A stretch of DNA of 50,908 nucleotides, taken from NCBI GenBank assembly GCA_031423995.1, contig JANPGO010000011.1:1-50908 (forward strand). Reading direction: 5' to 3'. The DNA comes from Candidatus Altimarinota bacterium. GTDB lineage: Bacteria; Patescibacteriota; Gracilibacteria; BD1-5; UBA2023. Positions 9,310 to 50,908 of the stretch are shown in pieces. The notes under the pieces are model-generated. The model was not told the DNA's origin. It saw only the letters and a program-made list of their open reading frames with translations, and did not search any database. Both the position numbers and the translations under genes were made by a program. Every line of letters starts with the position of its first letter. Positions within the stretch are counted from its first letter, which is position 1.

Positions 9310-10923
9310 ATGTTCAAAAAATATATTTCCATTGTTCCTGCACTTTTCCTTGTCGGATGCAGTTGGTCATCAGCTCCATCAGACTTCTCATGAATGTACC
9401 GTGCACATGTGACAAAACAACTCGACTCAGTCCATCAAGTAGCTGAGGATATCGGAATCGGGAAGAAATATATGATCGATGGATCAACCAAATTCTGAGC
9501 GAATGTTCCTGGGTATATGAGCGGTATTCTCTCGATGGATTATACTTCCAAGATTGATGGACGAGACATAGAATTCACATGACGAAAATTCCTTCTCGGC
9601 TATGAGGCATTTATTGCATCTGGTTCAATCTCTCTCGATGCGCTCGGAATTACATCAAAATGAGGAGATACCTATTTCTTCTTCAAGGATCTCGCTGAGC
9701 ATAATATGCTCAGTCCTCGAATGCTCGAAGTATTTCAGAAATATAATGCAAAGTGGCTCTCTCTCACCAAGGCAGACATAGAATCTTCGCTCTCTGGAGG
9801 AACTCTCCAGGACGTCCTCTCATACAAACTTTCCGAATCACTCTCTTCGCTTACACTCGATGAGGTGAAAGAGAGATTGAATAAGTACCCACTCTTCCAG
9901 GAAGTGGGCGACCTTGGAAATTCTGGCTCACTCCATCAGTATGCAGTCTCGCTCAATGCTCCAAATATTGTTTCCCTGATTGATGATTTCTCTCTCCGCC
10001 TCACCGGAAGTTGACTCTCTTCAGATGATCGGTCGACACTGACGAAGGATTTTGCATCTGTATCAAGTAGTGGTACAGTGAGTTTTGATCCGAAGGATGC
10101 AAGGTACATCAACCTCGATCTCATGCTCTCATCATCAGATATGTGAACTACACGAATTATGCTCAAGGAGGCAAAAGATGAATTCCAACTCACGCTGAAG
10201 ACAAATGTTACCACTCTTTCTCTTTCTGCAGTGAAGTCTGAGAATGGTGATCAGAATAGCACTCTCTCGCTCAGTCAGGGAGACAAGGAGGTCGCAAAAC
10301 TCGTCGTCCTCTTCAAATACGAAGATGGTCGTATGAACGAACTTGATCTCACTATGAGTGCTCCATCTCAGGGGCTCACGATGAACCTCATAGAGAAGAA
10401 TGCAAAAGATGGATCATTCGAAGGAAATATGAACGCAGGTATAGGAAATGCAACTTGGACAGGAAAAGTTGATCATCGGGCTCTCATGGCGCTCCATCTT
10501 CATGGGGCAGTAGTGGGGACAACTCTCGCTGTCGATCTCGAAGCAAAAAATGGAGATATGATATATGGTCCACTTGTCATGAAGAGTGGAAATACGATTG
10601 ACTTTGCTGCGGATATATGACTTCGTGTCACTCCAGAGCGATTCTCTCTGAGTATCGATACTGCACTCCCATCAGATGGGACTGGGAGTGGTGCCACGGA
10701 ACAAAAGGCACACTTCGATGCTGATATTATCGCAAAACGATCAGGATTCTCAGGTAATGTCGAGACACCAAAAGCTGAAAAGACATTTCGAGAATTCATC
10801 AAGGATATCGATGCGATTGCTCCTGCAGAAGAATCCTTCCAAGAAACTCCCCCTGAAGAGTCACTTTCTTGAACTCCAGGAATGGGATCAGGGACCGTTA
10901 TTCAGGGAACCGTATCGAACTAA
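9310..10923 (+). CDS. Lipoprotein, function unknown (537 aa)
   Basis: Lipobox MFKKYISIVPALFLVGC. Frame 1 joins ORFs 9706..10014 and 10159..10620 through TGAs to TAA 10921. Confidence 0.7.
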
Positions 10924-10933
10924 TCTTCTCTCT

Positions 10934-11059
10934 ATGCGCAAAGCGTTCATCACTATTACTGTCATTGCCCTCCTTCTTTCAATCATCGGAACAGGGGTCC
11001 TTGTCTACATAGATTCACACAGTCCAATACCGTCTGAGTCTTCCGTATCAGGAGAATAA
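10934..11059 (+). CDS. Small single-pass membrane protein (41 aa)
   Basis: MRKAFITITVIALLLSIIGTGVLVY... starts 11 nt after the upstream stop. Confidence 0.4.
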   Translation: MRKAFITITVIALLLSIIGTGVLVYIDSHSPIPSESSVSGE

Positions 11060-11081
11060 TTTATTTGTATTTTTTCTTCCT

Positions 11082-11393
11082 ATGTCTGATCCACACATCA
11101 CCAACGAACAAAAACTTGAAGCCATGTTTCGTATTATTACAGAACAAGAAGATCGGAGAAAGCGAGCGCAATGGTTTCGTCTCTTGAAGTGGTGTATACT
11201 TGCTGTTGGTATCTATTTCATCGCGACACAGCCAGCACTCATCCTCGGGAAGGTGACTGAGATCATCAAACCGCTGGTACTCTCGACGGCGAGTGGAATG
11301 ATCTCAACACAAAAAGATGAACTCATGAAGAGTATCAAGGATGTCCTTCCAGCAGGTATTGACGTCAAAGAATTCCCACTTCCTCCCCAATAA
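11082..11393 (+). CDS. Hypothetical membrane protein (103 aa)
   Basis: Uninterrupted track ORF with one predicted TM segment. A terminator overlaps its stop codon. Confidence 0.55.
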   Translation: MSDPHITNEQKLEAMFRIITEQEDRRKRAQWFRLLKWCILAVGIYFIATQPALILGKVTEIIKPLVLSTASGMISTQKDELMKSIKDVLPAGIDVKEFPLPPQ

Positions 11394-11407
11394 TTTGGGG
11401 ATTTTTT
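11385..11407 (+). terminator. Rho-independent terminator
   Basis: CCCCAA-TAAT-TTGGGG hairpin followed by ATTTTTT. Confidence 0.6.
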
Positions 11408-11419
11408 CTGAATATTTCT

Positions 11420-12427
11420 ATGATCATCACCCCACTCGGACATACAGAATTCCTCGTCGATATCGCGAATAGTGAGTGAGAAAATGTCCGTATCCTCGTC
11501 GACAGTTGGCTCTCGGATTTTGCCATCGGGGATCTCATGGAACGCGCAGTGAAGGTAGAACTTGATCCTGAAAAAATCGCGACCATCGATGCCATCTATA
11601 TCTCGCATGCTCACTCAGATCATCTGGATCCGTATACTCTTGTTTCGATCTACTGACTATCGCAGGCTCACAAGGAGGGGAATTTCCCCCTCTTGATGCT
11701 TCCAGTCACACTGGGGTATCTCAAGCCACTTTTTGCTCAGTATCTGCCGAATGCTCCGATTCATTGGCTCATGAACTATGAGTCCCATACTTTGAACGGG
11801 ATCAAGATTACTGGCTATATGTTCCCACAGTCTTCGATTACCAATGAAGATGACGTCATGATGCTCTCGGTCGACAATGGTCGAGAACTTCTTTTTGCTG
11901 AGATCGATACCCTTCCGGAAGAGGATTCTCTCGATGCCCAGCGCGAACTCTACCGTATCCTCTCGAGAGAGGGATACGAGACGATCTCTTATATCGCGAG
12001 TCGAAATGAACTTCCAGGACAGCTCCCACTCCTTGACCTCCCCATGAAGAAACGCAAATCATTTCGGGACGAATATATTGCTGGACGCAAAGAGGAAATG
12101 TACTTTGCCTATCAGAAATGGGAATACGAGGAATTCGAAAATTTCCCGAATATATTCGAGATCCCCAACCTGGTTCGTGGGTATATCGGGCAGGGAATCG
12201 CCTATCCGAGACAATGCTCGCTCGATTATTCTCACCTCCAAATATTCCCTCTCGAAGAAATCGCTTCGATGGAGTCGGATATCGCACGCGAGTGTGGCTA
12301 TGAATTCCCACAAAAGGCGCTCCTTCCTGGTCGTCAATACAAGATCGAGAAAGCCAGTATTGAAGCAGGAAGAAAAGAATGTCCGATAGGGAAAATAATA
12401 GACAATAAGAAGCAGAAAGGAGATTGA
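11420..12427 (+). CDS. MBL-fold metallo-hydrolase
   Basis: ISHAHSDHLD (HxHxDH motif). ATG 11420 joins ORF 11693..12427 in frame 2 through two TGAs. Confidence 0.8.
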
Positions 12428-12448
12428 ATTCAAGAGATGTCGAGTGAT

Positions 12449-12542
12449 CCGTCATTCTGAACGGAGTGAAGAATCCATTTGTCTGATTCACGGGATCCTT
12501 ACCCACAAGGGGTATACTGACTATCGCAAGCTCAGGATGACG
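12449..12542. repeat. 94-nt TIR element (CCGTCATTCTGA...TCAGGATGACG)
   Basis: Near-perfect terminal inverted repeats. The 5' arm is identical to the copy at 1064. Confidence 0.55.
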
Positions 12543-12743
12543 ATACAAAGAGACAAAAGAGACTCTATGCTTCCTGACCACTTTTTCCTCGTGAACATAC
12601 TTCAGAGAGTATTGAGGCAGCGAAGATTCATATTCTCGAAATACTGAATCATCGATTCCTCCCATACTGGTCAGCTTCTCCCATCGCGAGCCTCCGAGAT
12701 GCACTCCTGAAGAATCGGGATGGGGCATATAGGATATCCTTCT

Positions 12744-12847
12744 CCGTCATTCCTGCGGAGGCAGGAATCCAGGATTCTGGAGGAAGAGATTCCGGGTCAT
12801 TCATCCTTCGGTGTAAACCAACGGAGAACGGAAGCCCGGAATGACGG
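12744..12847. repeat. 104-nt TIR element (CCGTCATTCC...GGAATGACGG)
   Basis: Perfect 10-nt terminal inverted repeats with internal palindromes (CCTGCGGAGGCAGG). Confidence 0.55.
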
Positions 12848-12916
12848 AAGAGAGAAATTATTTTTGAGTATTCTTTTGCTTTCGTCTGATTCAGGGAAGT
12901 TGCGTATTCAGAGGGC

Positions 12917-13162
12917 ATGAGAATCGATGAAGATTATTGGCTCGATGATGTACTTGATTTCCTCGACGGATGACAGGAACTCTATTCGAACTTCTGGCAT
13001 ACCCTCGATCCGAAGCGAATCTACCGGCTCTGGACCTGCCTCGGTGCGAACTATATGAACCATGATCTGGTCGTAAACAAATATCGCCTGCATTTTGAGC
13101 GGGCGATACGGGGAGAGACGGCAGAATCATATGTCACGGCTATTTTTCCTCATCTTTCCTAA
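12917..13162 (+). CDS. Hypothetical small protein (81 aa); strand uncertain
   Basis: The plus-strand frame uses the local codon preferences (CTC, ATC, GAT) and one TGA. An antisense ORF (12908..13093) is also open. Confidence 0.35.
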
Positions 13163-13253
13163 TATGTTCCAACTCAGTCCATTCGTGATTTTTTGCCTCT
13201 TCTGAGGAATACTCTCAGTGATCAGAGTTGGACTCTCTTGAAATACGGATCAT

Positions 13254-13844
13254 ATGGGACTCATCTGGAATCTTATCCTTGCCCTCATCCCATATTTCTT
13301 TGCTCTGATCTACGTCCGTGAGAAGCGAAAATGGCATATGATTTTTTTCTTTCTCTGGCTCCTCTTCTTCCCAAATAGTCTCTATATCTGGACTGACTTC
13401 ATCCACCTCGAACAGGATGGAATACTCCTTCATTTTGATATCGTCTACATCAGTATCATGGCGCTTGCAGGACTCTTTGCGGGATTCAGTTCGCTCCATC
13501 TCATCCACATCTATTGGAATCTCAGGTATCATCGTGTGCGATGATGGATCTACGTTTCTGTGATTATGATTGTCTCACTCTTCTGAGTCTTTCTCGGAAG
13601 ATTTCTCCGGTTCAACTCATGGGATATCATAAATGAACCGCTTCAGCTCGGTCGTGAGATACTCTCGCTCCTCATCCATCCGAATACTCTTCCACAATTA
13701 GAGGATACAGTTCGGGCGACAGGGCAGGTGATCTATGGGCGATGATTCATGAATATGTATGGATTCATCACCCTTTATTTCATATTCTATATGCTCTTAT
13801 ATGGGTTTCTGTATCGGTCGAGGAAGAGTGAAAATATTTTCTAG
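13254..13844 (+). CDS. Integral membrane protein (DUF1361-like)
   Basis: ORF 13254..13544 continues in frame 3 through three TGAs to TAG 13842. Hydrophobic throughout. Confidence 0.6.
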
Positions 13845-13880
13845 AGAAACCAGTATTATTGCCCTTTCAAACTTTTTCTC

Positions 13881-13886
13881 TATAAT
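13881..13886 (+). promoter_or_regulatory. TATAAT box 6 nt upstream of the murC ATG (possible leaderless transcript)
   Basis: Exact TATAAT; the spacing would place the transcription start at or near the ATG. Confidence 0.3.
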
Positions 13887-13892
13887 CCCCTC

Positions 13893-15413
13893 ATGCAAAA
13901 ACACCTCCACGTCATCGGTATCGGAGGGATCGGTGTCTCAGCACTGGCTCGATACTATCATCACCTTGGCTATTCGATCTCGGGTTCAGATTGATTAGAT
14001 TCTCCACTGCTTGAGACGCTCAGAAAGGAAGGATTCCAGATCCATATCGGTCATGATGTAGGCAATCTTCCTGAAGATACAGATCTCGTCATATATTCGG
14101 AAGCGATCATCACGAAGCCTGATCTCACTCCAGAAGAGCAGATCTACTCGAATCCTGAACTTGCATGTGCTCGAGATCTTGGCATTCGGCATATTTCCTA
14201 TCCTGTTGCCCTCGGTGAAGTCTTCAATGCGAAGCAAGGAATCGCTATCACTGGTTCGCATGGAAAATCAACGACAACGGCTATGACGGGTATTTTGCTG
14301 ACCTCATCCCCAACCCTTCTCCTGAAGGAGAAGGGAGATTCTGGTTCCTCCTCTCTGAAGGAGAGGGGGTTAGGGGGTGAGGTGGGTGCATCCGTACTCG
14401 TGGGGACACAGGTACCACAGCTTGGAAATTCGAACTTTCACTATGAAGAATCCGAAAATTTCGTGATCGAGGCATGCGAATATAAGCGATCATTCCTCCA
14501 GTATCATCCCTATATCACGGTCATTACGAATATCGACCTCGATCACCTCGACTATTATAAAAACCTCGAGGATTATCTCTCTGCGTTCCAGGCGATCGTC
14601 GACCAGACGAGTGGATATGTCATCATCTCAGCGGATGATGAGAATTCTCTGAAGCTCCAGATCCCAGAAGAAAAGAAGATTGTAGTAGGGGGGTCCGAGA
14701 TCCGATATTCAGCAAAGGTTGAAATGCTTTGTCACTGTGGCACAGAAGTGTCATATGAAGAAAAGACTCTGCCGATTCCATCGATGCACCTCCAGGTACC
14801 AGGCGATCATCTCCTCCATGATGCGCATCTTGCCTATACGGTCGGGCGACTTCTCGGAATGCAGGATGATGTGATCGTGGCGAAGCTCGAATCCTATACA
14901 GGTTCTTGGCGGAGATCGGAGATTGTCGGCACAACGAAACATGGAAATATCGTGATGTCTGACTATGGTCACCATCCCAATGAGATCCGTCCGACACTCC
15001 GAGCAATCCGTGAAAAATATGGAGATAAAAAACTCCTCGTGATCTTCCAGCCACATCAGTATTCTCGAACACGTGAGCTCTTGCATGAATTCGCAACAAG
15101 CTTTTCCGATGCTTCAGAACTCATCATTCCGAATATCTACTTCTCTCGGGATAAGCAGGAAGATGTCGAATGGATGACGACAGAGCGACTCATCTCTGCA
15201 ATAGTATGAACAATGAGCAGTGAACAATGAAAAATGAAGATATCGAGCTCCCCTGATAAGGGGGGAAGGGGGGTTTTCTCAGTCAAAAATGGAAATGGAC
15301 TCGAAAATACTGCGAAGCTCATCCGAGAATATGACGAGAAAAATCCTAATTCTTCTATTATTCTCCTCCTCGGAGCAGGGGATGTGGATAAGCTCAGATA
15401 TGAGATAGTCTAA
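13893..15413 (+). CDS. murC: UDP-N-acetylmuramate--L-alanine ligase
   Basis: HVIGIGGIGVSALA, GSHGKSTTTAM, DYGHHPNEI and GAGDV motifs. Frame 3 joins ATG 13893, ORF 14283..15209 and a TGA-containing tail to TAA 15411. Confidence 0.9.
14305..14390. repeat. Twin-hairpin repeat retained in frame inside murC
   Basis: CCCTTCTCC-TGAA-GGAGAAGGG and CCTCTC-TGAA-GGAGAGG encode ...LLLKEKGDSGSSSLKERGLGGEV... between the P-loop and the next conserved MurC block. Confidence 0.5.
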
Positions 15414-16171
15414 TCAAAAAAATCCTCCAAAGAATTGTTCACGAGAGCGTCATTATATCCCATCATAAAAGTCTCTTCCAATATTTTTGGATTATGAGTC
15501 AGTAATTTTGCTGGTATTTCCATATTTCTCACAAGATGTATCGATAATCACTTTCTTTGAAGAGATGAAATATTCTGATCTTGTGCTCTCGATGTATCGA
15601 TAGCAAGTATTTCAGTAGCTCAGAGCAAAATAGCTTTTTCTATAGTTGCAGAAAATGGTGCCGCTACTCAGCCATCAATATACTTTTTCCCATAGAATGA
15701 CTTTACTCATCCATAAAGTACTGGTACTGACATGGACGCTTCTATAATATCGAAAATATCCTCTCATGATACAATATCCCCTCTTGAAAAATATGCAGGA
15801 GTATTCCGCGGAATTTCACTCGCGGTTATGTACCAATTCGTCTTTGTCTGGAGGAACCTATCTATAAAAAGGGGTTTATTTTTTCGAAGAACTGTGTTTA
15901 TGACAAAATCAATACTCATAACCCTATAAATCTTGTATGGATTTATAAAACCTGTATTTGCAAGTTGATTGGTCCAAATATTATAGATTTCATCATACTG
16001 ATCAGTGAGATAATACGTTGCACATCCAGCTCATCCTGATGTAGCAATTATGATATCAGGTTTTTTCGATGGGAATTTTTGGGCAAGTCAACATAAAAAT
16101 CCTCAAGTATATGAACAACGCATTCCTCATCAGGACAGTATTATTGCAGTTTTTTTTGAGCTTGAAATCAT
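15410..16171 (-). CDS. Patatin-like phospholipase
   Basis: ILSGGGMRCSY (oxyanion-hole motif), ATSGGAG (nucleophile elbow) and YIDGGV (Asp of the dyad). The whole 253-codon frame was verified. TAG 15410-15412 overlaps the murC TAA. Confidence 0.85.
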
Positions 16172-46182: not shown

Positions 46183-46845
46183 ATGCAACATGAATCCATT
46201 TTCCTCGATCATCACTTTGAACTCTCAGAATCAGAATTGAGTCAGTTTGAGAGATTTCTTACGATTTTTCGCGAGTACAATAATCATACGAATCTTTCCG
46301 CAATTCGAGATGAAGTAGGTATTGTGGAGAAACACTTCATCGATTCCCTCTATGGAGCACCTGTTATTCTCGAGCTTCTTGAGATGAGCAAAAAAGAAAC
46401 CGAATGATTCAGGCTTCTCGATATCTGATCTGGATGATGATTCCCAGGGATTCCACTCAAGATCGTTCTTCCCGATCTGAGGATGACTCTTCTCGATTCT
46501 ATCGGAAAAAAAGTGAAGGCAATGAACCACTTTATCCAAGAACTCGGACTTACAAATATCACCGCAATACAAGATCGTGCTGAGAACTTAGCGAAAGACT
46601 CACATCATCATGGATCATATGACATCATCGTCTCACGAGCAACGGCATATATGACGGATATTCTCGCATGGTCTGTACCATTCCTTACTCCCTGAGGGAG
46701 AATCATCCTCTACAAAATGCCGTCAGAGGACGAGAAGCGAGATATACAAAAAATAACGAAAAAACTCTGACTCATTCTCGAAAATGAACAGAAGTATGTT
46801 CTCTGAGAAAAAGAACGAATTCTCTATATTTTCGCAAAAAAATAG
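46183..46845 (+). CDS. rsmG: 16S rRNA (guanine527-N7)-methyltransferase
   Basis: LLDIGSGGGFPGIPL, in which three of the glycines are TGA. ORFs 46183..46407 and 46483..46695 are joined. Ends at TAG 46843. Confidence 0.9.
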
Positions 46846-46942: not shown

Positions 46943-47083
46943 ATGATCAAACAGATCACACAATTCCAGAAGAAATACAATGTTCGGCCCTACACGGTTC
47001 TCCTTCTCGGACTCCTCGCTGTGACGAATAATGCACTTGCATTTGCAGCCGTCGCACCTTTCGATCCAACTTCCATGATGTAG
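46943..47083 (+). CDS. Possible small secreted peptide (46 aa)
   Basis: Signal-like VLLLGLLAVTNNALAFAA followed by a short tail. A hairpin and T-run follow at 47118-47141. Confidence 0.3.
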   Translation: MIKQITQFQKKYNVRPYTVLLLGLLAVTNNALAFAAVAPFDPTSMM

Positions 47084-47117: not shown

Positions 47118-47141
47118 CTTCCATTTTTTGGAAGTTTTTTT
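47118..47141 (+). terminator. Rho-independent terminator
   Basis: CTTCCA-TTTTT-TGGAAG hairpin followed by T7. Confidence 0.5.
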
Positions 47142-47312
47142 ATGTTTGCGAGTAAGAATTTGGTAGTATAAGGTAAAGATTTCAGAGTAAATGATGTAGC
47201 CGTCATATAATATTAAACATTAAATATTATATCATGCAATATGAAGTCCGTGACAAAATCTGAGAAATAGTCTAGTATAACCAGAGCAACCAGTATACCA
47301 ATATAAAAATTC

Positions 47313-50300
47313 ATGCGTTTTCTCGATAAATATACACAATCATTCGTACAGCCACGTCCGTGGAGCACTGCTTGGATCGCACTCCAATGGTGAAATCTTC
47401 TTTTCTGGAAGAAGCTCACGGCAATTCTTACTCTTTTTTGTCTTCTTGCATCGTATTTTCCGATTCAAGCATATTTCTCTCGATGACTCGAGTACCTTCC
47501 CTATGCAGATGCCCTCTACGAGAAGAAGATTGTCGATGTTCCATACACAAGGAACGATATGCTCGACTATGTGAGCCAAGATGAAGCACTTCGCATAGCG
47601 ATCAATATTGGCTGATGACTGGATTTTGACTGCCATGGCTCTCGTCACCTCTCACCGAATACAGAGAATATCTACGATTGTGCCTATGCTGGATATGCAG
47701 AGAAGAAGGGAATTATTTCAGCATCCTATACACCAACTGATTATACGAGTCGTATCGCTGCAGTTCGTTCACTCGTCGTCGCATCATGACTTCAGCAATC
47801 ATCACATGGAATTCCCTATGTTGATGTCCAAAGTGAGACTGGGTATATTGCGCGTGCCTATGATGTCGGCTGTCTCCCGAGTTCGAATTATTTCTATCCG
47901 GATACCTATATCTCTCGTGGTGAGATGCTCAAGCTCTCTGACTGTATCAATACGGCGATTGCTTCATCCGTCTCCATGACGATCCCGAAGAGTCATGTGA
48001 TTGCTTCATCCTCGAATCCAATACTCGTACAAAATCAGCCACCTCTCCCTGTGGTATCTATTTCTGTTCTTTCGGGAGAGAATTCAGTATCAGATCCTCA
48101 AAACGTTGTTCCAGTTCCTCCTCATTCAAATACTGGTATAATTCAAACAGGATCAACTCTAGAATCTGGAGCACTTGCTCTTCAGGGTCAAACAATCGTG
48201 ACACGGGAAGTTATTCGTGAAAAAATCGTGGAAGCAACAGGATCGAATATCATCCTTCCACAGGCATCAAATACTCTTCTCGGCTATGACAGCAATGGTA
48301 CGCTCATCACGGTCGGTATTGGATCAGGAGTAGAAATCATCGGAGGGAAAATACAGGCACATCCACTCGTCATCAATACTTCCGAGACATTCAGTGCAGC
48401 TCCGAGTACTCCACCACAGATGAATACTGTAGTTCCTCCATCCAATCTCCTCTACCCATCAACACCACTTCTTCAGTTCCAGGGAATTCCTGGTGGAGGA
48501 GGTTCGAGCTCTATCACTTCTGTCTTCGGTAGAAATGGAATCGTTACCGCAACAGCAGGGGACTATACAACCGATCTTGTCACTGAGGGATCACGTCTCT
48601 ACTTCACGGACCTGAGAGCACAGAATGCACTTTCCGGAAGTATCCTGGCTCTGAACACTGCTATCACGACACTTTCTGGGGCGATCGGAGTGGCTTCATA
48701 TTCAGGATTTCTCTCACTCACCTCTGATGTTTCGAACCTCTCAGGAACGGTGATGAGCCTTGGGAATTCTCTCATAACTTTTTCTGGTGCATTCGGAAAC
48801 TTCGGAAGTACTCTCACAGTTCTCTCGGGTACACTCAATATCCTCAGCGCGGATGTTGGAAGCCTTTCGGGCATACTGAGTAACACCAATTCTGGACTCG
48901 TTTCTCTGGGGAATCTCATGAATACACTTTCCGGAACTCTTGCAACGCGTATAGGACTCTCGGATCTCTCTGCAACAGGAGGAATCACGTATAATGTATT
49001 AAGTTGACTCTTTGGCTGGAATGGTACTACCTCGAATATTGCCGAGTGATTAAATCTTTACTATACTCAGGGACGATTTGATAGTGCTTTCTCAGCGAAA
49101 TCAACGAGCAATCTCACAGAAGGATCCAATCTCTACTTCACTGACCTCAGAGCTCAGAATGCACTTTCTGGATCAATCGGAAGTCTGACAAATAATTTTA
49201 CGACACTTTCTGGAGTGGTTGCGACCATAGGAAGTACACTCGATACCGTTTCTGGAAGTATTCTCAATTTTTCTTGATCGCTTTCCGTTCTTGCTTCACA
49301 AGTTGCGTCTCTCTCTGGAAGTATCAGTTCAGTTTCTGGAAGTCTCGATCTCCTCTCGAATACGGTAACGACTCTTTCAGGGGCAGTATGAGTCATAAAT
49401 AGCGGGCTTATCGCAGCGAATGGAAATATTTCTACACTCTTTTCTGGTCTTTCGAGTGCAACAGGAACTCTTGCAACCATTGCAGGAAATGTTGCGACAC
49501 TTTCTGGAGTTCTCTCGGCACAAAGCGCAAGTATCACTGCCCTCAACTCAGATATTGGAGTCTTAAGTGGCAGCATAGCAACACTTTCGGGAATGGTGAT
49601 AGGAATCAATGCTACTCTCGCAACTCTCTCGGGCACTCTCGCAACAACGAATACAAATCTCTCTGGTCTTTCAAGTACAGTCAGTATACTTTCTGGAACT
49701 GTTACTGCGCAAGGCAATACTCTTATCAATCTCGGATTAAATCTTGCTACCGCAACAGGAACAATAAATGTCCTTTCTGGAACTGTTTCCACTCTTTCAA
49801 CTGATCTCAATACACTTTCGGGTTCAGTAAATGCTCTTTCAGGACTGACTTCCAGTATTGCTTCGAATCTCAACACAACGAATTCCAACCTCGCAACAGC
49901 AACAGGAAATATCCTCTCTCTCCAGAACAACCTCGCGACAACAACGGGATCATTAAATACGGTTATTGTGAACCTCGCAACCGCAACAGGAAATATCGCT
50001 ACATTTTCTGGTTCTCTTGGTATCCTTTCTGGCAATCTTGCAACAACGAACTCCACTCTCAATACTCTCTCAGGTGTTATCGCAGGAAAGATTGGACTTG
50101 CTGACCTCTCAGCAATTGGGCCTATTGCCTATAATAATCTCACAGGGAATTTCTCATTCACTTCTGGATCTGATGGTCAGGTTCTGATGATGTCAGGTAG
50201 CCAATTTGTCTGGAAAAATCCAACAACAGTCGGTTCATCAGTCACGAGTATATTTGGTCGAACAGGTGATATTCTCGGGCAAATAGGGGATTATACAACG

Positions 50301-50908
50301 GCACTTGTGACAGAATCAGGATCCAATCTCTACTTCACAGATCTGAGAGCACAGAATGCTCTTTCTGGAAGTATCGGAAGTCTTTCTGGAACGCTCGCAT
50401 CACTTTCAGGTACGGTTAATACACTTTCTGGGATGATCAATCTCATGAATGCGAACTATACAACTCTCACATTCTCAGTTGCAGGAATTGGAAATAGTCA
50501 GATCGCACTTCAAAATAATTTTAATGCGCTTTCTTGATCTGTTGCTTCGCTCTCAGGAGTCGTTCTCTGAATCGGGAATAACCTTACAATTCTTACCGCT
50601 GACGTCAATACACTTTCATGAAGGGTGAATACGCTTTCTGGCGTAGTGGATAGTGCAAATACCAACATCGCTACTCTTTTCACCAACCTCGCAACCGCTA
50701 CTGGAAACATCGCTACACTCTCAGGAAATCTCAACACCACCAACACAAATCTTACCAATCTCACAACAAGCTTCAACACTCTTTCCGGAAATGTAGTCAC
50801 CCTCTCAGGAGTCGTTGCTACCAAGATCGGACTCACGAGCCTCTCAGTCAACTGACCACTCACATACAATAATGGTACCGGACTCTTCGGCATCAATATA
50901 GCCAACTC
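47313..50908 (+). CDS. Giant repetitive surface/fibre protein (3' end outside window)
   Basis: Frame 3 runs from ATG 47313 (47313-47927 verified codon by codon) through ORFs 47925..49007, 49593..50537 and 50625..50855. It has an N-terminal signal anchor, an SLH-like segment (FYPDTYISRGEMLKL) and then heptad xxLSGxx repeats. Confidence 0.75.

What the first reader, a model, noticed from the sequence alone, without database searches (positions are those of the whole stretch)
47313..50908. Giant heptad-repeat fibre protein with a thrice-repeated conserved module and 21-nt DNA periodicity
An N-terminal signal anchor and an SLH-like segment are followed by hundreds of residues with a strict 7-residue period marked by LSG (for example TLSGVVATIGSTLDTVSGSILNFSGSLSVLASQVASLSGSISSVSG). 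The repeat field is punctuated three times by a near-identical module, ..FGR.G.I....GDYTT.LVTE.S.LYFTDLRAQNALSGSI. The DNA cores of these modules (48597-48644, 49131-49178, 50328-50375) are almost identical. The protein is rich in Ser/Thr/Asn/Leu/Gly and runs off the window after more than 1190 codons. It is a strong candidate for a cell-surface or host-attachment fibre of an episymbiont, and the repeats are a likely site of recombinational length variation.
Basis: partly seen in the sequence, partly recalled or inferred. Interest (0 to 1): 0.6.

Follow-up and report, generated by a model that had tools for sequence, protein, structure and literature searches.

The report
Cell-wall-anchored coiled-coil surface fibre

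Summary
Under code 25 (TGA=Gly), 47313-50906 is one open frame of 1198 codons that runs off the contig end. TGA alternates with GGN at conserved Gly columns in orthologs, and 4 of 13 TGAs are the G of the LSG motif.

The protein has:
- a signal anchor (res 35-53);
- a divergent triple SLH domain (res 56-219; model matches SpaA/Sap SLH, TM 0.66-0.70);
- a linker;
- three almost uncharged heptad coiled-coil rods (about 17, 47 and 24 nm if helical), separated by beta-rich connector modules.

The thrice-repeated core LYFTDLRAQNALSGSI is where each predicted helix starts. The FGR..GDYTT part is in only two of the three copies.

Positional orthologs, also just downstream of rsmG, are 2460 and 3463 aa. 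They end in a tail-fibre-like tip, a Peptidase_G2-like intramolecular-chaperone domain and a Pro-rich tail. The 3' part is not assembled in this genome.

The ~45-aa module is widespread, has no Pfam family and also occurs in phage structural proteins.

Best reading: a cellular, SLH-anchored, probably trimeric host-attachment fibre that works like Bdellovibrio MAT fibres. The DNA repeats are diverged (longest exact repeat 21 nt), so slippage-driven length variation is weakly supported. This is a new variant of a known kind.

The parts
47118..47134 (+). Terminator-like hairpin plus T-run. It ends the upstream unit, so the fibre gene is its own transcription unit.
47250..47278 (+). Promoter-like site (GTGACA-17-TAGTAT) in the A+T-rich spacer before the start codon. 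This is a consensus match only.
47313..50906 (+). Fibre gene, 5' part: 1198 codons under code 25, 13 TGA=Gly, open at the 3' end of the contig.
47415..47471 (+). Signal anchor or signal-peptide hydrophobic core (res 35-53, LTAILTLFCLLASYFPIQA).
   Evidence: Orthologs have the same feature.
47478..47969 (+). Divergent triple SLH (S-layer homology) cell-wall-binding domain, res 56-219.
47970..48503 (+). Pro/Ser-rich linker and a short beta-rich stretch (res 220-397), including a 'G..G..L....G' element like the one in module 3.
   Evidence: Sequence. No family hit.
48504..48608 (+). Connector module 1 (res 398-432): SVFGRNGIVTATAGDYTTDLVTEGSRLYFT.
48609..48947 (+). Coiled-coil rod 1 (res 433-545, about 17 nm if helical), starting at DLRAQNALSG.
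48948..49142 (+). Connector module 2 (res 546-610). It runs from RIGLSDLSATGGITYN through two NLY(Y/F)T units. It lacks FGR..GDYTT.
49143..50087 (+). Coiled-coil rod 2 (res 611-925, about 47 nm if helical): 4 charged residues in the 308 residues counted (res 618-925), no Pro.
50088..50339 (+). Connector module 3 (res 926-1009): KIGLADLSAIGPIAYN, GSDGQVLMMSGSQFVW, SIFGRTGDILGQIGDYTT, LVTESGSNLYFT.
50340..50822 (+). Coiled-coil rod 3 (res 1010-1170, about 24 nm if helical). Its first 40 residues are modelled as a helix at pLDDT 77-95.
50823..50906 (+). Start of connector module 4 (TKIGLTSLSVNGPLTYNNGTGLFGINIAN), cut by the contig end. It is 96% identical over 28 aa to an internal stretch of the same-genus C-terminal fragment G003:C73.
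46183..46845 (+). rsmG/gidB, the conserved upstream neighbour of the fibre gene in three genomes of two genera.

Best explanation
This is the N-terminal 1198 residues of a cellular surface fibre, probably 2400-3500 residues in full, from a Gracilibacteria-type bacterium that reads TGA as Gly.

Proposed mechanism, with each step marked as shown or inferred:
1. The protein is exported by Sec through its N-terminal signal anchor. Shown: the hydrophobic segment. Inferred: export.
2. A triple SLH domain fixes the base of the fibre to the cell wall. The partner is probably a pyruvylated secondary cell-wall polymer, and the putative S-layer protein of the same genome is probably fixed the same way. 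Shown: the fold, the homology and a csaB-like gene. Inferred: the ligand.
3. A Pro-rich linker crosses the wall and S-layer (inferred).
4. The shaft is a chain of parallel alpha-helical coiled-coil rods made of almost uncharged L-S-G-x-(L/I/V)-x-T heptads, about 87 nm in the visible part. Short beta-rich connector modules separate the rods. ATKIGLxxLSAxGPLxYN ends a rod, and NLYFTxxRAQNALSG starts the next one and is where the helix begins. Shown: the periodicity, the helix prediction and purifying selection on the cap. Inferred: a trimeric state and the connector role.
5. The unassembled C-terminal part, judged from positional orthologs, carries a tail-fibre-like globular tip and a Peptidase_G2-like intramolecular-chaperone domain. 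These would trimerise the three chains outside the cell from the C-terminus and could then be cut off. A Pro-rich tail follows. Shown only in orthologs. Inferred for this gene.
6. The tip binds a surface structure of the host or prey cell, so the fibre acts as a long-reach adhesin (inferred).

The building blocks (LSG heptads, connector module, chaperone domain) are shared with virion proteins of uncultivated phages. The gene itself is chromosomal.
For: Code and reality of the gene. The frame has 1198 codons without TAA or TAG. TGA alternates with GGN at conserved Gly columns and fills the LSG glycine. The three LYFTDLRAQNALSGSI copies differ only synonymously.

SLH domain:
- Res 21-211 are 25% identical (E 1e-13) to the N-terminus of a 971-aa protein on C28 that passes Pfam SLH (43.5 bits, cut-off 20.8).
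- The family profile hits only SLH structures in the PDB: SbsB 2.4e-5, SpaA, Sap.
- The AF2 model has pLDDT 81 and pTM 0.79.
- The top 15 Foldseek hits are all SpaA/Sap triple SLH (TM 0.57-0.70, prob 1.00). The next hit has E>1.
- A PS_pyruv_trans (CsaB-type) gene is present at 99 bits.
- Seven SLH-type loci are found in this genome.

Coiled coil:
- 3.5-residue power is 5-10 times the shuffle maximum in coil 2 and about 2.5 times in coil 3.
- The modelled stretch is a helix at pLDDT 77-95.
- The best PDB sequence matches are trimeric coiled-coil fibres: tail needle gp26 4LIN at 3.8e-4, reovirus sigma-1 and cavin.
- There are sub-threshold hits to SlaB and to P22-type tail needle families.

Cellular, not prophage. 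rsmG lies directly upstream on the same strand here, in G008 and in G030 (60% identity). The other neighbours are housekeeping genes.

Full-length orthologs are 3463 and 2460 aa with the same order of parts.

C-terminal chaperone. Five of five ortholog C-terminal domains match Pfam Peptidase_G2, best E 2.6e-8. Other LSG-heptad proteins carry PF13884/Peptidase_S74.

Viral sharing. The module is found on 45 IMG/VR contigs, one of them with terminase and portal next to it. An LSG-heptad protein lies in a phage structural block.

Literature context. Related CPR predators have a fibrous surface and giant membrane proteins (PMC8080830). Bdellovibrio uses phage-like trimeric fibres to recognise prey (PMC10769870).
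Against: - No expression, localisation or binding data exist.
- The 3' half of the gene, including the presumed tip and chaperone, is missing from this genome. It was not found on any other contig.
- The protein's own Pfam SLH score is below threshold (13.9 bits).
- The ligand-binding TRAE motifs are degenerate (SQDE, SRIA, SRGE).
- The oligomeric state was not tested, because only a monomer could be modelled.
- The connector module modelled poorly (pLDDT 50-78) and has no PDB fold match.
- One glycine per heptad is unusual for a stable alpha-helical coiled coil.
- The host of this organism is unknown.
- A near-complete genome of the same genus (G004) lacks the gene, so it is not essential.
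Confidence: 0.65

Rival explanations
1. An envelope spacer or stalk rather than an adhesin. The fibre would hold an outer layer (S-layer, sheath or neighbouring cell) at a fixed distance from the wall. SLH-coiled-coil proteins such as SlpA, OmpM and Omp-alpha do this in diderm Terrabacteria, and SlaB does it in Sulfolobales.
For: It shares the SLH plus long coiled-coil architecture with SlpA/OmpM (PMC9388160, PMC10628300). The coil composition resembles SlaB (NCBIfam NF040788, E 1.4e-18, far below cut-off). Vampirococcus cells are separated by 20-100 nm of fibrous material (PMC8080830).
Against: Orthologs end in a tail-fibre-like tip, a G2-like chaperone and a Pro-rich tail, not in a beta-barrel or membrane anchor. 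Length differs by 1000 residues between two genomes of the same genus, G008 and G030, which is odd for a ruler. The gene is absent from a 96%-complete genome of the same genus.
Confidence: 0.15
2. A prophage or phage-derived tail-fibre gene. It would be carried by a mobile element and used by a virus, or by a tailocin-like particle, not by the cell.
For: The heptads, the connector module and the chaperone domains all occur in phage structural proteins. There are PHROG sub-threshold hits to tail needle and minor head protein families.
Against: The protein has an N-terminal signal anchor and an SLH wall anchor. The position next to rsmG is conserved in two genera, with housekeeping neighbours and no phage genes. 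There is no match in 50,697 GenBank phage records.
Confidence: 0.07
3. The heptad field is not a coiled coil. It would be a beta-structured trimeric shaft (triple beta-helix or beta-prism), as in many tail fibres and in the Bdellovibrio MAT proteins.
For: The field is rich in Gly, Ser, Thr and Asn and almost uncharged. The first 25 residues of the modelled fragment, also heptads, were not helical, although at low confidence.
Against: There is a clean 3.5-residue hydrophobic period with L and L/I/V at a/d. The modelled stretch is a confident helix. All family and PDB similarities are to alpha-helical coiled coils.
Confidence: 0.08
4. An assembly artefact or a decaying pseudogene.
For: The contig ends inside the gene. 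The same happens in both same-genus orthologs. Reads could not be checked.
Against: The frame has 1198 codons without TAA or TAG. Differences between the module copies are synonymous only. No long exact repeats exist that could collapse. Intact 2460- and 3463-aa orthologs sit inside long contigs.
Confidence: 0.03

Closest known systems
Bdellovibrio bacteriovorus MAT (mosaic adhesive trimer) fibres (PMC10769870)
   Same: Both are carried by a bacterium that lives on other bacteria. Both have a signal peptide, a conserved N-terminal surface-anchoring domain, a long fibre built from phage-like parts, and variable C-terminal tips with or without an intramolecular chaperone/protease domain. In MAT the proposed role is recognising the prey surface.
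   Different: The MAT N-terminal domain is a beta-rich domain of about 130 aa with no PDB homologue, whereas here it is a triple SLH. MAT shafts are intertwined beta-helices or prisms, whereas here they are heptad coiled-coil rods with short beta connectors. The chaperone in orthologs is G2-like, not S74. No sequence homology was detected.
SLH-coiled-coil envelope connectors: Deinococcus SlpA, OmpM of diderm Firmicutes, Thermotoga Omp-alpha (PMC9388160, PMC10628300; Omp-alpha from my own knowledge)
   Same: An N-terminal SLH wall anchor is followed directly by a long parallel coiled coil, which is homotrimeric in SlpA.
   Different: Those proteins have one SLH per chain and end in an outer-membrane beta-barrel or membrane anchor, and they tether an outer membrane. 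Here each chain has three SLH repeats, as in Firmicute S-layer proteins. The organism is presumably monoderm, the rod is several times longer and is interrupted by modules, and orthologs end in a tail-fibre-like tip.
Phage fibres and spikes with C-terminal intramolecular chaperones (Peptidase_S74: K1F endosialidase, T5 pb1; Peptidase_G2: phi29/GA-1 appendage) and the trimeric coiled-coil tail needle gp26
   Same: The heptad sequence style resembles gp26 4LIN (E 3.8e-4). Orthologs carry a G2-like domain. The connector module is present in phage structural proteins.
   Different: This gene is chromosomal and exported. It is anchored by SLH rather than by a virion-attachment domain. The module was not found in GenBank phages.
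Trimeric autotransporter adhesins (YadA, BadA)
   Same: Both are modular rod adhesins that alternate coiled-coil stalks with beta connectors ('necks') and show highly variable length.
   Different: TAAs are anchored by a C-terminal outer-membrane barrel and have the opposite polarity. No YadA anchor, head or stalk domains were detected here or in the orthologs.
Giant membrane proteins of Vampirococcus lugosii (Absconditabacteria) (PMC8080830)
   Same: Both come from the same broad lineage and code-25 clade. Both are giant, membrane-associated proteins proposed to form the fibrous surface and to attach to the host.
   Different: The Vampirococcus proteins are described with WD40, PKD, integrin, fibronectin and DUF11 domains. 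No SLH-coiled-coil-module architecture is reported.

Membership tests
SLH (S-layer homology) triple domain, PF00395 | Match to the Pfam SLH model above the gathering score | tested here: not met
   The protein itself scores 13.9 bits (E 0.054) against a cut-off of 20.8. The homologous domain of the C28 paralog scores 43.5 bits.
SLH (S-layer homology) triple domain, PF00395 | Three tandem SLH repeats folding into the pseudo-threefold helical SLH trimer fold | tested here: met
   The AF2 model has pLDDT 81 and pTM 0.79. The top 15 Foldseek hits are all SpaA/Sap SLH over the full length, TM 0.57-0.70. The profile hits only SLH chains in the PDB.
SLH (S-layer homology) triple domain, PF00395 | Conserved TRAE-type motif (Arg) in each repeat, used to bind pyruvylated cell-wall polymer | tested here: inconclusive
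   The motif positions read SQDE, SRIA and SRGE. The paralogs have TRAE, TRAE and SRGE. Arg is kept in repeats 2 and 3 only.
SLH (S-layer homology) triple domain, PF00395 | Polysaccharide pyruvyl transferase (CsaB type) in the genome | tested here: met
   PF04230 scores 99.4 bits at G000:C18:1400-2251. The family is broader than CsaB, so this is supportive only.
Alpha-helical coiled coil | Heptad (3.5-residue) hydrophobic periodicity with a/d core positions | tested here: met
   Power at 3.5 residues is 11.9 in coil 2 and 6.6 in coil 3, against shuffle maxima of 1.2 and 2.6. Core positions are L and L/I/V.
Alpha-helical coiled coil | Helical secondary structure | tested here: met
   Residues 1010-1049 are modelled as one helix at pLDDT 77-95. 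Only 40 residues of rod were modelled with confidence.
Alpha-helical coiled coil | Defined oligomer (a trimer is proposed) | not testable with these tools
   Only monomer prediction was available. The best sequence matches are trimeric coils, and trimerising chaperone domains occur in orthologs.
Phage tail fibre or spike with intramolecular chaperone (Peptidase_S74 / Peptidase_G2) | C-terminal autoproteolytic chaperone domain | not testable with these tools
   The 3' end of this gene is not assembled. Five of five relatives with the conserved C-terminal domain (the two positional orthologs, the same-genus fragment G003:C73 and two database homologs) match Peptidase_G2, best E 2.6e-8. The first member scores 22.8 bits against a cut-off of 25.
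Phage tail fibre or spike with intramolecular chaperone (Peptidase_S74 / Peptidase_G2) | Encoded in a phage or prophage structural module | tested here: not met
   Synteny with rsmG and housekeeping neighbours is conserved in three genomes.
Bdellovibrio MAT superfamily | Conserved beta-rich N-terminal domain of about 130 aa after the signal peptide, and a beta-helix/prism shaft | tested here: not met
   The N-terminal domain is a helical triple SLH. The shaft is a heptad coil. The comparison rests on the description in PMC10769870. No MAT sequence was fetched.
Trimeric autotransporter adhesin | C-terminal YadA-type membrane anchor, with YadA head or stalk repeats | tested here: not met
   No such Pfam families were found in this protein or in the full-length orthologs.
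SlpA/OmpM-type OM-PG connector | Single SLH, coiled coil, then a C-terminal outer-membrane beta-barrel | tested here: not met
   There are three SLH repeats per chain. Orthologs end in a tip, a chaperone and a Pro-rich tail, and no barrel family was detected.

The most novel reading that the evidence does not exclude
Gracilibacteria would have taken over the construction kit of viral tail fibres (uncharged LSG-heptad rods, the NLYFT/GDYTT connector modules and C-terminal self-cleaving trimerisation chaperones) and grafted it onto an SLH wall anchor. The result would be fibres 100-400 nm long, assembled outside the cell, that capture the host and set host range. Because the same modules circulate in phages and in other CPR lineages (Saccharibacteria, Peribacteria, Parcubacteria), episymbionts and viruses that target the same hosts would be exchanging receptor-binding hardware.
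Probability: 0.3. Interest if true: 0.75.

Novelty: new variant of a known kind. Interest (0 to 1): 0.55.

Why it matters
How uncultured CPR bacteria such as Gracilibacteria find and hold their hosts is an open question. The papers found here mention pili and unspecified 'giant proteins'.

This locus gives a concrete, testable candidate. It has a defined wall anchor, a shaft of measurable length, conserved connector motifs and, in orthologs, a swappable tip with a self-cleaving chaperone.

It also defines a widespread connector module of about 45 aa with no Pfam family. It was found in 725 representative proteins at E<=1e-3, with up to 19 matched stretches per protein. A marker position next to rsmG lets the fibre gene be found in fragmented genomes.

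The tip domains could help predict host identity. The link to phage proteins bears on how receptor-binding modules move between viruses and predatory or episymbiotic cells.

Practically, the locus explains why assemblies of this genus break here. It also shows that public protein databases hold many of these proteins mistranslated, with TGA read as Trp (LSW in place of LSG).

Tried and rejected
1. The C94 fragment as the missing C-terminus. The 5'-truncated ORF at the end of contig C94 has Peptidase_S74 and looked like the missing end. Rejected: its G002 ortholog is the end of a different 1304-aa signal-peptide protein without LSG heptads, followed by the same downstream gene. The same-genus C-terminal fragment G003:C73 has a G2-like end instead.

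2. Search for the rest of the gene in G000. Neither tblastn under code 25 with this protein and with the G003 C-terminus, nor contig-end overlaps of 15-127 nt, found anything.

4. Pfam, NCBIfam and PHROG scans of the whole protein. Only sub-threshold coiled-coil look-alikes came up: DUF1664, NPV_P10, SlaB, SMC, tail needle. These were not used as membership evidence.

5. PDB sequence search with residues 1-446. No hit.

6. Foldseek with the module model. No match better than E 3.8. The model is too uncertain in that part.

7. PDB profile search with the ortholog G2-like domain. No meaningful hit.

8. tblastn of the module against GenBank phages. No match.

It was repeated with a single sequence.

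10. Earlier findings of this scan, searched by sequence. Nothing.

11. Tandem Repeats Finder. No array, so this is not a true tandem DNA repeat.
Full report
**What is there**

Under the standard bacterial code the region breaks into many short ORFs. Under table 25 (TGA=Gly) one frame is open from the ATG at 47313 to the last complete codon at 50906. It has 1198 codons, 13 TGA, and no TAA or TAG.

The window is the whole of contig C11 of a 1.44-Mb, 121-contig, 87%-complete genome. The gene therefore runs off the assembly.

TGA=Gly is supported from inside the gene. Four of the 13 TGAs supply the G of the recurrent LSG/FSG motif. In an alignment with the two same-genus orthologs, TGA in one genome faces GGN in another at ten conserved Gly columns.

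The upstream unit ends in a terminator-like hairpin at 47118-47134. An A+T-rich spacer with a weak promoter-like site precedes the start codon.

**Anatomy**

- **Signal anchor.** Residues 35-53 form a hydrophobic segment after KK, with a Kyte-Doolittle 19-residue mean of 1.73.
- **Triple SLH domain, residues 56-219.** See the next section.
- **Linker.** A Pro/Ser-rich stretch follows the SLH domain.
- **Three heptad rods.** They span residues 433-545, 611-925 and 1010-1170, and connector modules separate them.
- **A fourth connector.** It starts 28 residues before the contig ends.

The heptad consensus is L-S-G-(N/T/S)-(L/I/V)-(A/S/N)-T. Hydrophobic Fourier power at 3.5 residues is 11.9 in rod 2 and 6.6 in rod 3, against shuffle maxima of 1.2 and 2.6. 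The N-terminal 400 residues show none.

The rods have 4 charged residues each and no proline. At 0.1485 nm per residue they would be about 17, 47 and 24 nm long.

LSG keeps the same phase modulo 7 from residue 617 to 1163, even across module 3, except for one 11+10 stutter.

At DNA level there is a 21-nt signal: identity 0.35 at lags 21, 42 and 63, against about 0.25 elsewhere. The copies are diverged, however. TRF finds nothing, the longest exact repeat is 21 nt, and LSG is spelled by 20 different 9-mers.

**The SLH anchor**

Pfam SLH alone does not reach threshold on this protein (13.9 bits). The other evidence is as follows:

- Residues 21-211 are homologous (E 1e-13) to the N-terminus of a 971-aa protein on contig C28. 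That protein passes Pfam SLH at 43.5 bits and looks like the S-layer protein.
- A profile of this domain family hits only SLH structures in the PDB: SbsB, SpaA and Sap.
- An AlphaFold2 model of residues 56-219 has pLDDT 81 and pTM 0.79.
- It superposes over its full length on the SpaA and Sap triple-SLH crystal structures, TM 0.57-0.70. These fill the first 15 ranks, and rank 16 has E>1.
- The genome has a CsaB-type pyruvyl transferase gene.
- It has seven loci with this type of domain.

The TRAE ligand motifs are degenerate in the fibre (SQDE, SRIA, SRGE). The fold is therefore shown, and the ligand is inferred.

**The rods and the 'module'**

A model of residues 901-1050, with an 18-row alignment, gives a single helix from D1010 of LYFTDLRAQNALSG onward at pLDDT 77-95. 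It gives two beta hairpins at pLDDT about 75 in the connector. Confidence is low for the FGR..GDYTT stretch and for the short N-terminal flank.

Its three DNA copies are 40-44 of 48 bases identical, and every difference is synonymous. The copies are old and are held by selection on the protein. They are not a recent duplication or an assembly artefact.

The FGR..GDYTT part belongs to connectors 1 and 3 only. Connector 2 has two NLY(Y/F)T units instead.

A local iterative search shows that the connector is itself modular. The elements are KIGLxxLSAxGPxxYN, GxxGQVLxxxGxxxxW, SVFGRTGxVxxxxGDYT and TExxNLYFTxxRA, and they occur in different combinations and numbers.

The best PDB sequence matches of rod 2 are the trimeric coiled-coil fibres tail needle gp26 (4LIN, E 3.8e-4), reovirus sigma-1 and cavin. 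The connector model has no PDB fold match.

**Relatives**

An exhaustive HMMER search with residues 1-446 found 725 representative proteins at E<=1e-3. Nearly all match through the 45-residue module, with up to 19 matched stretches per protein.

Module-rich proteins have no Pfam family over the module.

Orthologs by the N-terminal 394 residues (41-45% identity) exist only in two other genomes of the genus. In both, the contig also ends inside the gene. A 96%-complete, 5-contig genome of the same genus lacks the gene.

Two genomes of another genus in the family carry complete genes of 3463 and 2460 aa. They have the same order of parts:

- signal peptide;
- SLH-like domain;
- connector;
- LSG rods alternating with connectors;
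- a globular distal region;
- a conserved domain that matches Pfam Peptidase_G2, the intramolecular-chaperone autocleavage domain of phi29/GA-1 appendages (5 of 5 sequences, best E 2.6e-8);
- a short coil;
- a beta domain;
- a Pro-rich tail.

In both genomes rsmG lies immediately upstream on the same strand, as in the window (60% identity), and the other neighbours are housekeeping genes. These are positional orthologs of a chromosomal gene.

A same-genus C-terminal fragment (G003:C73, 1189 aa) contains a stretch 96% identical to the last 28 residues of our ORF. It ends in the same way. That part is not present anywhere in this genome assembly.

**Link to viruses**

- Other database proteins with LSG heptads carry Peptidase_S74.
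- One LSG-heptad protein sits next to a phage cement protein gene.
- A module-rich 1804-aa protein lies on 54-kb marine contigs full of small orphan genes, with a DNA ligase and a PolD-type polymerase.
- The module is found on 45 IMG/VR contigs. In one of them it lies in a structural block with terminase and portal.
- It was not found in 50,697 GenBank phage records.
- It also occurs in Saccharibacteria, Peribacteria, Parcubacteria and one archaeal MAG.

**Interpretation**

The best reading is a cellular, SLH-anchored, probably trimeric coiled-coil fibre used to reach and bind the host.

Shown here:
- the code and the open frame;
- the signal anchor;
- the SLH fold and homology;
- the heptad periodicity and helix prediction;
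- purifying selection on the predicted helix-start motif (LYFTDLRAQNALSGSI);
- the conserved chromosomal position;
- the ortholog architecture.

Inferred:
- export;
- the wall ligand;
- the trimeric state;
- the connector function;
- the nature of the missing C-terminus;
- the adhesive role.

A C-terminal self-cleaving chaperone makes mechanistic sense for a Sec substrate. The chain emerges N to C, so the trimerising domain appears last and could zip the three chains together outside the cell without ATP.

The closest functional parallel is the Bdellovibrio MAT fibre family (PMC10769870). The closest architectural parallels for the base are SlpA/OmpM-type SLH-coiled-coil connectors (PMC9388160, PMC10628300). 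It meets the defining features of neither family.

Papers on Gracilibacteria and Vampirococcus mention giant or repeat-bearing surface proteins and a fibrous surface. They do not mention this architecture (PMC8080830, PMC6851277, PMC11452946).

**Limits**

- Only monomers could be modelled.
- The host of this organism is unknown.

Noticed in passing
G000:C28:12061-15129 (-), outside the window; homologs in many related genomes: The putative S-layer protein has a signal peptide, a triple SLH, a PT linker and about 750 beta-rich residues. Its ~1000-codon open frame contains no TGA at all. The same is true of about 20 homologous ~1000-aa frames in related genomes. The fibre gene, in contrast, has 13 TGA in 1198 codons. 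TGA=Gly seems to be avoided in this presumably very highly expressed gene.
   Followed up: partly
G000:C94:27727-28452 (-), outside the window: A 5'-truncated gene ends in a Peptidase_S74 intramolecular-chaperone domain. Its G002 ortholog is a 1304-aa signal-peptide protein. Such S74-ended secreted proteins occur in 18 of 41 related genomes, with up to 6 per genome. This is a second, MAT-like family of fibre proteins in these bacteria.
   Followed up: partly
window 46943-47083 (+) and hairpin 47118-47134: A small ORF with a signal-peptide-like start lies between rsmG and the fibre gene. It is followed by a terminator-like hairpin. Another first-stage note also flagged it. I did not test whether it is conserved in G008 or G030.
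   Followed up: no
L043 (Tara contig, 54 kb), gene at 10001-15415: A virus-like marine contig with many orphan genes, a DNA ligase and an archaeal-type PolD DP2 polymerase encodes an 1804-aa protein. That protein consists largely of the NLYFT/GDYTT connector units without any coiled coil.
   Followed up: partly
Database homologs P0003, P0004, P0007, P0024: In public databases many Gracilibacteria-type homologs are translated with TGA=Trp. The heptad motif then reads LSW, and TEGTNLYF reads TEWTNLYF. Searches and profiles built from them inherit the error.
   Followed up: no
G004 (same genus, 5 contigs, 96% complete): This genome has the S-layer paralog but no fibre gene and no LSG-heptad match. 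The fibre is therefore an accessory gene within the genus.
   Followed up: partly
L029 (G030:C4), inside the 2460-aa ortholog: A run of N (34 X in the translation) lies in the middle of the heptad field of the G030 ortholog. That assembly too is uncertain or masked within the repeats, and its length is approximate.
   Followed up: no
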